A stretch of 64,000 nt of DNA, counting the filler, from Catajapyx aquilonaris (taxonomy: Eukaryota), in the NCBI GenBank assembly GCA_000934665.2. It is 3 parts of 3 records of this genome, joined end to end, with 100 filler letters (N's around TTAATTAATTAA, not from the genome) between each part and the next. Parts side by side here need not be neighbours in the genome. Positions count along the whole stretch, not along the records: positions 1 to 21,333 come from JYFJ02006081.1; 2 more parts are not named here. One strand, given 5' to 3'. Positions within the stretch are counted from its first letter, which is position 1. Each line of letters opens with the position of its first letter. The notes below the pieces were generated by a model. That model worked only from the letters and a program-made list of their open reading frames with translations, did not search any database and was not told the DNA's origin. Shown one piece after another: positions 11,674 to 12,342 of the stretch. Made by a program: the position numbers and the translations under genes.

Positions 11674-11892
11674 GCAAGGCTTTTGAACCTCTTGCCGAGA
11701 GCGAGCCAGGAGGCTTGTGCGTTCCTACTGTCAGGAAGGATGGCCAACCTGTGAGCAGGAATCTTCTGGCAGTGTCGGCGGCTTCTGGGAATAATGGTGC
11801 CCTCCCCATTCGAACAATTATCACCCGAATGGCTTACTACATGGCCAGAGCCATGGGAGCAAAGGATGACACGTCTTCTTGTGATCCAAAAG
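11674..11892 (+). CDS. ADAM-like gene exon 5 (degenerate active-site exon)
   Basis: GKAF....PGGLC...RN...S..N.G..LP.....TRMAYYMARAMGAKDD..C aligns to ADAM GLA.....GGIC...N.G..T..NYG.......TAHE.GH..GA.HD..C. Phase 1 to phase 1. Confidence 0.9.
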
Positions 11893-12180
11893 GTAGGAAG
11901 GAACAAAGGGGGTTGAGTTTGCCTCCCTTTGAAGGTGGTTCACATGGGCGTCATTGGGAAGTCCTTCTCTATGTATCCCTTACCTGACCACTTATGAGCA
12001 ATGCTAATGCTATACATCTATTTGCACCCACCTCGCATCTGCAGAGGTCTTCTTGCAGCTTAGCACCAGTGAAAACCTTACTCTTCATTAAGAAAAACAT
12101 GCATTAAACACAGTATTACCGAGTTTCTGAAAAACTCAGTTCTAATAACTGTAATTAACATGACCCAACATGTCTTTCAG

Positions 12181-12342
12181 ATGTGGACTTCTATGGCTAT
12201 TTCCTGATGCACAGCCCCAATCAAGATGGCAGGGATAAAAATCACTGGATTTTGTCATCATGTAGCAAGTTGCAGATAAAGGCCATGTTTATGGCACAAG
12301 GAAGCTGTTTCTTAGTTGGCGACACTTCATATTGTGGGAATG
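12181..12342 (+). CDS. ADAM-like gene exon 6 (Met-turn to start of disintegrin)
   Basis: GYFLMHSPNQDGRDKNHWILSSCSKLQI...CF......CGN resembles ADAM10/17 G.YxMY..A.SG...NN..FS.CS...I...CF......CGN. Phase 1 to phase 1. Confidence 0.92.

What the first reader, a model, noticed from the sequence alone, without database searches (positions are those of the whole stretch)
11674..12342. Zinc-binding motif fully erased while the fold is kept
Seen: the position of (T/A)HExGHxxGxxHD reads AYYMARAMGAKDD, so all three His ligands and the catalytic Glu are lost. The conserved Gly, the following Asp, the Met-turn (YFLMH) and the structural cysteines remain, and the exons are stop-free. The prodomain exon 7547-8124 has no cysteine (no cysteine switch) but keeps basic furin-like sites RKRR and RRRGR. 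Known: non-catalytic ADAMs are familiar among mammalian sperm/neuronal ADAMs, whereas ADAM10/17 orthologues are active sheddases. Inference: a selected pseudoenzyme derived from the ADAM10/17 clade, acting as a decoy, binding module or sheddase regulator.
Basis: partly seen in the sequence, partly recalled or inferred. Interest (0 to 1): 0.8.

Follow-up and report, generated by a model that had tools for sequence, protein, structure and literature searches.

The report
Zinc-less ADAM-like pseudoprotease gene
An apparently intact animal gene encodes a distant relative of the ADAM10/ADAM17 cell-surface cutting enzymes in which all three zinc-holding histidines and the catalytic glutamate are replaced, so it probably binds partners rather than cuts them; whether it is expressed or conserved could not be checked.

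Summary
Exon 11674-11892 reads AYYMARAMGAKDD (11832-11870), and exon 12181-12342 reads YFLMH (12198-12212). Two aligners, run against bacterial M12B metalloproteases that carry HExGHNFGSPHD, place the first string on the zinc motif and the second on the Met-turn. No shuffle matched the hhalign score (0 of 248).

The gene looks whole. It has eight exons, canonical splice sites and a hydrophobic N-terminus. It runs 911 codons with no stop, against 33 and 53 stops in the other frames. No HExxH is encoded in any frame between 4000 and 17000, so there is no spare active-site exon.

Family evidence is thin. Pfam recognises nothing. The only database hit is the start of the catalytic domain to human ADAM17, at E 0.056.

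After a GEECDCG stub, the disintegrin and membrane-proximal parts give way to a 363-residue cysteine-rich exon with no known family. No membrane anchor was found.

No orthologue or RNA run could be obtained, so selection and expression are untested.

Verdict: probably a real non-catalytic ADAM10/17-type paralogue, a new variant of a known kind, of moderate interest.

The parts
4132..4302 (+). Exon 1, copy 1: ATG, hydrophobic signal-like N-terminus, 57 codons, donor CAG|GTGAGG
   Evidence: Joins exon A in phase 0 with no stop.
5397..5564 (+). Exon 1, copy 2, in a tandem duplicate of the promoter/exon-1 unit. It has a GC instead of GT donor and a 3-nt in-frame deletion.
   Evidence: 200 of 200 aligned bases just upstream of and into the exon are identical (3972-4171 vs 5237-5436); the flanking blocks are 74-93% identical.
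7547..8124 (+). Exon A: prodomain-like region, no cysteine, with RKRR (7553-7564) and RRRGR (8003-8017)
   Evidence: No database relative was found. The likeness to the ADAM10/17 prodomain is recalled only.
8587..8791 (+). Exon B: start of the catalytic domain (EYKVVCRLLIIGDHHFF...)
   Evidence: PDB phmmer: 18 of 24 rows are ADAM17, best E 0.056. The match covers the first ~46 residues of the mature ADAM17 catalytic domain (again).
9446..9614 (+). Exon C: central part of the catalytic domain (…EFCLGIVISGS…)
   Evidence: Aligned with the bacterial M12B block GLxHLFTGR..GIAF.
11674..11892 (+). Exon D: GGLC strand region and the degenerate active-site helix
11832..11870 (+). AYYMARAMGAKDD in the place of AHExGHxxGxxHD. 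All three His and the Glu are replaced; the Gly and the final Asp are kept.
   Evidence: MAFFT and hhalign agree on the register. Coordinates.
12181..12342 (+). Exon E: Met-turn (YFLMH, 12198-12212), C-terminal helix, SSCS and SCF cysteines, CGN|G
   Evidence: This is the only local hit of the M12B profile in the whole 911-aa model. Also.
13095..13209 (+). Exon F: stub of a disintegrin domain (VIEPGEECDCG…)
   Evidence: No Pfam or PDB hit. The motif string occurs in ADAM and snake-venom papers (search listing).
15384..16500 (+). Exon G: 363 codons of the model up to a possible donor at 16469, or 371 codons to the TAA at 16498-16500. Cysteine-rich (53 Cys in the 371 residues), with recurring CxxC[GND]xP[GF]x3-4C (4 times) and ExPC (9 times) and a Pro/Ala/Gln-rich linker.
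   Evidence: 0 of 5000 shuffles reach either motif count. No family found. Linkage to exon F rests on phase match and a strong acceptor only.

Best explanation
This is a protein-coding gene of an animal; other notes of this scan call the genome arthropod-like. It descends from an ADAM-type (M12B) metalloprotease, most likely of the ADAM10/ADAM17 kind, and has become a non-catalytic pseudoprotease.

The predicted product has these parts, in order:
- a signal-like N-terminus;
- a cysteine-free prodomain-like region with basic convertase-type sites;
- a metalloprotease-like domain that keeps its six cysteines, the Met-turn and the C-terminal helix, but in which all three zinc-binding histidines and the catalytic glutamate are replaced (Y, R, D and Y);
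- a short remnant of the disintegrin start;
- a new cysteine-rich repeat region.

No membrane anchor was found.

Inferred mechanism: the protein enters the secretory pathway and cannot hold the catalytic zinc or hydrolyse peptides. It acts by binding, with the dead cleft and/or the cysteine-rich tail serving as a recognition, decoy or regulatory module.

Shown here: the sequence, the gene structure, the register of the erased motif, and the absence of a spare active-site exon. Inferred: expression, secretion, folding, selection and any binding role.
For: Gene integrity:
- Seven introns, 13 of 14 splice sites shown with canonical dinucleotides and pyrimidine tracts (exon 1 donor); exon A's acceptor also serves the exon 1 junction.
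- 911 codons with 0 stops, against 33 and 53 stops in the other two frames.
- GC by codon position is 0.535/0.458/0.538, against 0.403 in introns.

Homology:
- Exon B matches ADAM17 at the start of the catalytic domain: 18 of 24 PDB rows, best E 0.056.
- In the read-through of exons A-C, 13 of 13 rows are ADAM17.
- A profile of 13 bacterial M12B proteins was used. 5 of the 13 were scanned with Pfam and 5 of 5 are Reprolysin_5, E 1e-19 to 1e-25. Its single local hit in the 911-aa model falls on the Met-turn and C-terminal helix, E 0.012.
- 17 of 3000 shuffles reach the hmmsearch score. hhalign aligns the motif through the C-terminal helix with P 0.0012. 0 of 248 shuffles reach that score.
- A wider 17-sequence profile gives 21 of 3000 shuffles and P 0.005.

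Motif:
- MAFFT and hhalign give the same register.
- The roles of the His, Glu and Gly residues in ADAM10/17 are as stated in PMC7669341 and bioRxiv 10.1101/2020.10.31.363473 (passages read).

No rescue exon: 0 matches to HExxHxx[GN]xx[HD] in six frames of the window, and none of the 8 plain HExxH matches lies between 4000 and 17000.

The cysteine-rich tail is structured rather than random.
Against: - Pfam's own Reprolysin, propeptide and disintegrin models find nothing in 7 exon-bearing pieces or in 2 read-throughs.
- hhalign probability is only 18.8% (7.1% with the wider profile), and the HMMER scores are near zero bits.
- Exons A, D, E and F give no ADAM hit in the PDB.
- No relative was found in three word-indexed searches, one full HMMER search of 1.84 billion representatives, or three contig scans. 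Conservation is therefore unknown.
- Expression is unknown.
- The 3' end is unverified. A donor-like AAGA|GTAAGT lies at 16469, and the first AATAAA after the stop is at 18308.
- The link between exon F and exon G rests on phase and acceptor quality alone.
- The ADAM10/17 assignment beyond exon B rests on recalled sequences.
Confidence: 0.55

Rival explanations
1. It is a pseudogene or a never-expressed gene relic. A duplicated ADAM10/17-type gene lost its active site and is drifting, and the open frame is only a matter of youth.
For: All four catalytic residues are gone, and so is the cysteine switch. No relative was found in any search. The canonical C-terminal domains and the anchor are missing. 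The nearer of the two exon-1 copies has a GC donor.
Against: The protein is so diverged that Pfam no longer sees it. Yet 911 codons remain open, against 33 and 53 stops out of frame. The splice sites are canonical, and the six catalytic-domain cysteines and the Met-turn persist. That much divergence without a single disabling change is hard to obtain by drift. The exon-1/5' region is 200 of 200 identical between the two copies, while flanks are 74-93% identical.
Confidence: 0.2
2. The gene model is wrong at its 3' half. The ADAM-like exons and the cysteine-rich exon belong to different genes, or further exons (transmembrane, cytoplasmic) exist, so the product is a membrane-anchored dead ADAM rather than a secreted one.
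For: The F-G junction is supported only by phase and a good acceptor. The exon G frame contains an ATG followed by a short hydrophobic run just upstream of the acceptor. There is a donor-like site at 16469, and no AATAAA before 18308. No RNA data were available.
Against: The 30 nt before 15384 are a typical pyrimidine tract ending in CAG, and the hydrophobic run is what that tract translates to. No convincing hydrophobic exon was found between 16470 and 20400 outside T-rich repeat DNA. The next gene, a C-type lectin, starts near 20300.
Confidence: 0.25
3. The resemblance to ADAMs is due to chance or convergence. This is an unrelated lineage-specific secreted cysteine-containing protein.
For: No Pfam hit. 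HMMER scores are near 0 bits and hhalign probability is below 20%. The language-model look-up of exon D returned only chance-level sheath-protein clusters.
Against: Two independent segments match M12B proteins in the right order and spacing. Exon B matches ADAM17 residues directly after the prodomain boundary. The motif through the C-terminal helix matches the bacterial profile: 0 of 248 and 17 of 3000 shuffles. Four cysteine columns and the Met-turn coincide. A CGNG…GEECDCG string follows where ADAMs start their disintegrin domain.
Confidence: 0.07
4. It is still an enzyme, using another metal site or chemistry built from the replacement residues (Tyr, Tyr, Arg, Asp).
For: None from these tools. 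The third-ligand His to Asp change alone is tolerated in ADAMDEC1, as stated in PMC3055250 (passage read).
Against: The general base Glu and two further ligands are also gone. Single Glu changes already abolish activity in ADAM10 and ADAM12 (PMC7669341, PMC3055250; passages read).
Confidence: 0.03

Closest known systems
ADAM17 (TACE) and ADAM10 (Kuzbanian) sheddases
   Same: The order of parts matches: signal, prodomain with basic sites, M12B catalytic domain, then CGNG…GEECDCG. The start of the catalytic domain matches human ADAM17. The Met-turn has no preceding Cys, and the six-cysteine pattern resembles ADAM10/17; both points are recalled and only partly checked against bacterial M12B proteins.
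   Different: The zinc motif HE(V/L)GHNFG(SP/AE)HD reads YYMARAMGAKDD. There is no prodomain cysteine. The disintegrin, cysteine-rich or membrane-proximal domains, the transmembrane segment and the tail are not detectable, and a new cysteine-rich exon stands in their place. Pfam does not recognise the protein.
Non-catalytic ADAMs (mammalian ADAM11/22/23 and others; Xenopus ADAM15 with HQxGH)
   Same: These are ADAM-family proteins that lack a working zinc motif and are thought to act as binding partners (PMC3055250, passages read).
   Different: They belong to other ADAM clades, keep full disintegrin and cysteine-rich domains and a membrane anchor, and are recognisable by family models. Here the parent appears to be of the ADAM10/17 kind. 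My six literature searches turned up no zinc-less member of that kind.
ADAMDEC1 (decysin)
   Same: [quoted passage not shown] Here the third ligand is also Asp and the disintegrin domain is a stub.
   Different: ADAMDEC1 keeps HExxH and is considered active. It is a mammalian ADAM28/ADAM7 relative and has no added cysteine-rich region.
Bacterial M12B proteases with HExGHNFGSPHD (loci L001-L013)
   Same: They have the same catalytic-domain scaffold. They provided the profile that aligns the erased motif, the Met-turn and four cysteines.
   Different: They are intact enzymes by motif, intron-less, and carry bacterial C-terminal domains such as DUF11, He_PIG or Somatomedin_B.

Membership tests
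M12B (adamalysin/reprolysin) catalytic domain | Recognised by family profile models (Pfam Reprolysin, Reprolysin_2 to _5) | tested here: not met
   No such family at E<=1 in 7 exon-bearing pieces, nor at E<=10 in read-throughs of exons A-C and D-E. The spliced protein itself could not be submitted.
M12B (adamalysin/reprolysin) catalytic domain | Detectable sequence homology to bona fide members across the domain | tested here: inconclusive
   Exon B vs ADAM17: E 0.056, 18 of 24 rows. Home-made M12B profile: 17 of 3000 shuffles, hhalign P 0.0012 but probability 18.8%. 0 of 248 shuffles reached the hhalign score. Wider profile: P 0.005.
M12B (adamalysin/reprolysin) catalytic domain | Zinc-binding consensus HExxHxxGxxHD | tested here: not met
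   The aligned position reads YYMARAMGAKDD. Only the Gly and the final Asp are kept.
M12B (adamalysin/reprolysin) catalytic domain | Met-turn downstream of the motif | tested here: met
   FLM (within 12198-12212) aligns with the FLM/YIM of all profile members.
ADAM family architecture | Signal peptide and prodomain before the catalytic domain | tested here: inconclusive
   There is a hydrophobic N-terminus after the ATG and about 190 residues before the catalytic start. No signal-peptide predictor was available. The prodomain exon has no database match.
ADAM family architecture | Disintegrin domain | tested here: not met
   Only the opening EPGEECDCG is present. There is no Pfam Disintegrin hit and no PDB hit.
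ADAM family architecture | Transmembrane segment and cytoplasmic tail | tested here: not met
   There is none in the model, and no convincing hydrophobic exon lies downstream. The 3' end is unverified by RNA.
ADAM10/ADAM17 subfamily | Groups with ADAM10/17/Kuz/TACE in a phylogeny | not testable with these tools
The only pointer is that the PDB hits are ADAM17 alone.
ADAM10/ADAM17 subfamily | ADAM10 cysteine-rich or ADAM17 membrane-proximal domain | tested here: not met
   No Pfam family on exons F or G.
Pseudoenzyme (selected non-catalytic homologue) | Catalytic residues lost in an otherwise intact coding gene | tested here: met
Pseudoenzyme (selected non-catalytic homologue) | Expression and purifying selection | not testable with these tools
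   No genome is held and no orthologue was found. No RNA evidence could be obtained.

The most novel reading that the evidence does not exclude
An arthropod has turned a duplicate of its Notch/EGFR-ligand sheddase (ADAM10/17 type) into a secreted, zinc-free decoy. The dead cleft and the retained prodomain-like region would capture sheddase substrates or the active sheddase itself. A newly acquired cysteine-rich repeat tail would target it to a partner or a microbe. The gene sits directly upstream of a C-type lectin gene. This would be the first pseudoprotease regulator derived from the ADAM10/17 branch itself. The iRhoms offer a parallel: they are dead rhomboids that control ADAM17.
Probability: 0.12. 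Interest if true: 0.7.

Novelty: new variant of a known kind. Interest (0 to 1): 0.42.

Why it matters
Dead ADAMs are familiar, but those known come from other branches of the family. ADAM10 and ADAM17 are treated as obligate enzymes, central to Notch, EGFR-ligand and cytokine shedding.

A zinc-less, probably secreted derivative of that branch with a new cysteine-rich tail would show that this scaffold too can be reused as a binding module. It would also offer a natural probe for what the ADAM10/17 cleft and prodomain recognise without catalysis.

If the gene proves unexpressed or confined to one species, it is only a curiosity of gene-family turnover.

Tried and rejected
- **RNA evidence:** The look-up of sequencing runs for 7400-16600, kind rna: no RNA holder was listed.
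- **Whole genome:** not held.
- **Word-indexed protein searches:** the exon B region, exon A and exon F (longer proteins only) found none. One search was too short and was corrected.
- **Full HMMER search with exon A:** 2 hits at E<=0.001. Both are repeat or low-complexity proteins unrelated to ADAMs.
- **Contig scans:** metagenome scans with exon A and exon G, and a viral scan with exon G, found no relative.
- **Exact look-up of neighbouring MATH-BTB proteins:** four candidate forms, 0 of 4 in the collection. This genome's own proteins are probably not in the library, and the blanks above are weak evidence.
- **Pfam:** nothing on exons or on read-throughs, except a below-threshold chance match to TDH.
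- **PDB phmmer:** exons A, D, E, F and the D-E read-through gave no ADAM.
- **ESM Atlas:** exon G gave no usable hit. Exon D gave sheath-protein clusters at chance level, with recognition 1727 below 2300 and 155 shared features; rejected.
- **AlphaFold2 without an alignment:** exon A gave mean pLDDT 41.4 and exon G 33.6. Both are unusable, so no fold search was run.
- **Folding the whole catalytic domain:** not possible, because the spliced protein is not a contiguous stretch of the window.
- **Earlier notes of this scan:** searches by place, sequence and words found nothing on this gene.
- **BLASTP self-comparison of exon G:** no off-diagonal repeat. The repeats are visible only as short motifs.
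- **Candidate exon at 7219-7410:** considered as an extra 5' exon and rejected. It has no ATG, and exon 1 joins exon A directly in phase.
- **Literature:** six searches found no report of a zinc-less ADAM10/17-type protein. These cover open-access full text only.

Full report
**What is at the coordinates.** The window is animal-type DNA with spliced genes. Other notes of this scan call the genome arthropod-like; I did not test that. The finding's span 11674-12342 holds two exons on the + strand. Exon D is 11674-11892, with acceptor tttcag| and donor |gtagga. Exon E is 12181-12342, with acceptor tttcag| and donor |gtaagt. A 288-nt intron separates them. Exon D reads ...GGLCVPTVRKDGQPVSRNLLAVSAASGNNGALPIRTIITRMAYYMARAMGAKDDTSSCDPK. 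Exon E reads DVDFYGYFLMHSPNQDGRDKNHWILSSCSKLQIKAMFMAQGSCFLVGDTSYCGN. The string AYYMARAMGAKDD lies at 11832-11870 and YFLMH at 12198-12212. The prodomain exon 7547-8124 has no cysteine and carries RKRR and RRRGR.

**The whole gene.** I assembled a model from reading frames and splice signals:

| Exon | Coordinates |
|---|---|
| 1 | 4132-4302 |
| A | 7547-8124 |
| B | 8587-8791 |
| C | 9446-9614 |
| D | 11674-11892 |
| E | 12181-12342 |
| F | 13095-13209 |
| G | 15384-16500 |

- Exon 1 holds the ATG, a hydrophobic signal-like stretch, and the donor CAG|GTGAGG.
- All junctions keep phase, and every acceptor follows a pyrimidine tract.
- The model has 911 codons with no stop, while the other two frames of the same CDS carry 33 and 53 stops.
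- Exon GC is 0.535/0.458/0.538 by codon position, against 0.403 in introns.
- Exon 1 and its upstream region are tandemly duplicated. Bases 3972-4171 and 5237-5436 are 200 of 200 identical, while flanking blocks are 74-93% identical.
- The second exon-1 copy (5397-5564) has a GC donor and a 3-nt in-frame deletion.

**Is the string really the zinc site?** Standard look-ups did not recognise the protein.
- Pfam found no reprolysin, propeptide or disintegrin family in seven exon-bearing pieces.
- Pfam also found none in read-throughs of exons A-C and D-E. Their introns happen to keep the frame, and stops were read as X.
- PDB searches gave one relevant result. The ORF holding exon B matched ADAM17 in 18 of 24 rows, best E 0.056 at 16.8 bits. 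The match covers the first ~46 residues of the mature catalytic domain, directly after the prodomain boundary. The A-C read-through gave 13 of 13 rows ADAM17, but at E 0.6-0.7 and only through exon B.
- Exons A, D, E, F and the D-E read-through gave no ADAM.

To get family members into the session, I scanned the prokaryote genome collection for a degenerate pattern of the ADAM10 motif. That motif is HEVGHNFGSPHD according to PMC7669341 (passage read). ADAM17 has HELGHNFGAEHD according to bioRxiv 10.1101/2020.10.31.363473 (passage read).
- Thirteen bacterial loci came back, and all 13 have an ORF with HExGHNFGSPHD.
- Five of the 13 were scanned with Pfam, and 5 of 5 are Reprolysin_5/M12B.
- A MAFFT L-INS-i alignment of their catalytic regions with the spliced catalytic region of the model (residues 251-502) places AYYMARAMGAKDD exactly on AHELGHNFGSPHD.
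- The same alignment places FLMHSP on the FLM-AP Met-turn, VVCRLLIIGDHHFF on the first strand, and four cysteines in shared columns.
- A profile HMM of the 13 gives one local hit in the whole 911-residue model, on the Met-turn and C-terminal helix (E 0.012).
- 17 of 3000 shuffles of the catalytic region reach the real score.
- hhalign aligns the motif through the C-terminal helix in the same register: P 0.0012, score 29.5, probability 18.8%. 0 of 248 shuffles reached that score; the highest was 22.9.
- I also tested a wider profile of 12 bacterial and 5 viral-contig sequences. L013 was dropped because its ORF starts too close to the motif. 11 viral loci of other metzincin types were left out. 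This profile gave 21 of 3000 shuffles and P 0.005, with probability 7.1%.

Homology to M12B is therefore supported at a modest level by two independent segments in the right order. The register of the erased motif is firm. The changes are H->Y, E->Y, H->R and H->D, with the Gly and the last Asp kept.

**No rescue exon.** In six frames of the whole window there is no HExxHxx[GN]xx[HD]. None of the 8 plain HExxH matches lies between 4000 and 17000.

**What else the protein has and lacks.**
- After CGN|G VIEPGEECDCG, the usual opening of an ADAM disintegrin domain (the string is found in ADAM and snake-venom papers, search listing only), similarity stops.
- Exon F ends after 38 codons. The next exon in phase is a single large one (15384-16500).
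- That exon encodes about 363 residues up to a donor-like site at 16469, or 371 residues up to the TAA, with 53 Cys in the 371.
- It carries four copies of CxxC[GND]xP[GF]x3-4C and nine of ExPC. 0 of 5000 shuffles reach either count. A Pro/Ala/Gln-rich linker is also present.
- It has no Pfam family, no Atlas neighbour and no relative in contig scans.
- No hydrophobic anchor is in the model, and none is convincing downstream.
- The 3' end is uncertain. There is the donor-like site at 16469, and the first AATAAA lies at 18308.
- Whether exon G belongs to this gene rests on phase and acceptor quality only.

**Is it alive?** I could not test expression. No whole genome is held, and no orthologue was found. 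Four candidate forms of the neighbouring MATH-BTB proteins are not in the protein collection either (0 of 4), so this species' proteins are probably not there and the blanks say little. The case for function is indirect. The protein is too diverged for Pfam to see, yet it keeps a 911-codon frame, canonical splice sites, six catalytic-domain cysteines and the Met-turn. That pattern is what constraint on a folded, non-catalytic protein would leave, and drift would not. I put about 0.55 on a functional pseudoprotease and about 0.2 on a pseudogene or unexpressed relic.

**Likely mode of action (inferred).**
- The protein enters the secretory pathway through the N-terminal hydrophobic segment.
- It may be cut by convertases at RKRR and perhaps at RRRGR. 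The latter is only a minimal RxxR site and lies 36 residues before the catalytic start.
- It has no zinc and performs no hydrolysis.
- It binds through the dead cleft and/or the cysteine-rich tail.
- Loss of the prodomain cysteine fits a protein with no zinc left to cap.

**Comparison with what is known.**
- Non-catalytic ADAMs are well known. Xenopus ADAM15 even lost activity by a single E->Q change (PMC3055250, passages read).
- Drosophila has two active ADAM10 homologues, Kuz and Kul, and Xenopus has an ADAM10-like paralogue (same paper).
- A coral ADAM10 is reported under positive selection in gamete recognition (PMC10157049, passages read).
- None of my six literature searches found a zinc-less member of the ADAM10/17 branch. 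The library is open-access full text only, and supplements were not consulted.
- My placement in that branch rests on the ADAM17-only PDB hits and on recalled resemblance to ADAM10/17 sequences: prodomain blocks, cysteine pattern, and a Met-turn without a preceding Cys. It does not rest on a phylogeny.

**Verdict.** This is a new variant of a known kind, a dead ADAM, here apparently of the ADAM10/17 type with a replaced C-terminal half. Interest is moderate and limited by the lack of expression and conservation data.

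Noticed in passing
window 3100-4700 vs 4690-6100: The promoter/exon-1 unit of the gene is tandemly duplicated. 200 of 200 bases around the 5' end of exon 1 are identical between copies, while flanks are 74-93% identical. Copy 1 carries a ~345-nt insertion (about 3606-3953), and copy 2 has a GC splice donor. This could mean alternative first exons, gene conversion or an assembly artefact.
   Followed up: partly
window 15384-16500: This cysteine-rich exon has no detectable family. 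It holds 53 Cys in 371 residues, four CxxC[GND]xP[GF]x3-4C units and nine ExPC units, plus a Pro/Ala/Gln-rich linker. AlphaFold2 without an alignment gave pLDDT 33.6.
   Followed up: partly
window 20296-21390 (+): A C-type lectin gene lies directly downstream (Pfam Lectin_C E 4e-12 on 20844-21152). A signal-like exon sits near 20350, and a second lectin-like exon is interrupted by N runs at 21334-21433.
   Followed up: partly
window 46456-47463 (-) and 57865-58881 (-): Two intron-less MATH-BTB (SPOP/TDPOZ-like) genes lie about 11 kb apart (Pfam BTB E 1e-26 and 1e-28, MATH_2 E 1e-17 and 1e-19). Neither exact protein is in the 15-billion-protein collection.
   Followed up: partly
window 37350-37778 (-): This exon has a Myogenic Basic domain (Pfam PF01586, E 2e-11), i.e. 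a MyoD/nautilus-type bHLH gene. A C2H2 zinc-finger exon lies at 53162-53614 (-).
   Followed up: no
window 9102-9254, 19005-19192, 23876-24083: A short interspersed repeat recurs, whose translation reads ...KPRKTTVRVAGPGIRTQDLPISS.... One copy lies in an intron of the ADAM-like gene. An inverted pair of another repeat lies at about 13857-14045 and 14383-14736.
   Followed up: no
loci L001-L013 (bacterial contigs): Thirteen bacterial genomes or MAGs (Woeseiaceae, Myxococcales, Steroidobacter, Glaciecola, Nitrospirales and others) encode M12B proteases with the exact ADAM10-type motif HExGHNFGSPHD. They are fused to DUF11, He_PIG or Somatomedin_B domains.
   Followed up: partly
loci L019, L021, L023 (giant-virus MAG contigs of IMG/VR): These hold large ORFs (749-957 aa) with an ADAM-like HELGHNFGMxHD motif, a YIM Met-turn and matching cysteines. 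They are M12B-type proteases in putative giant viruses.
   Followed up: no
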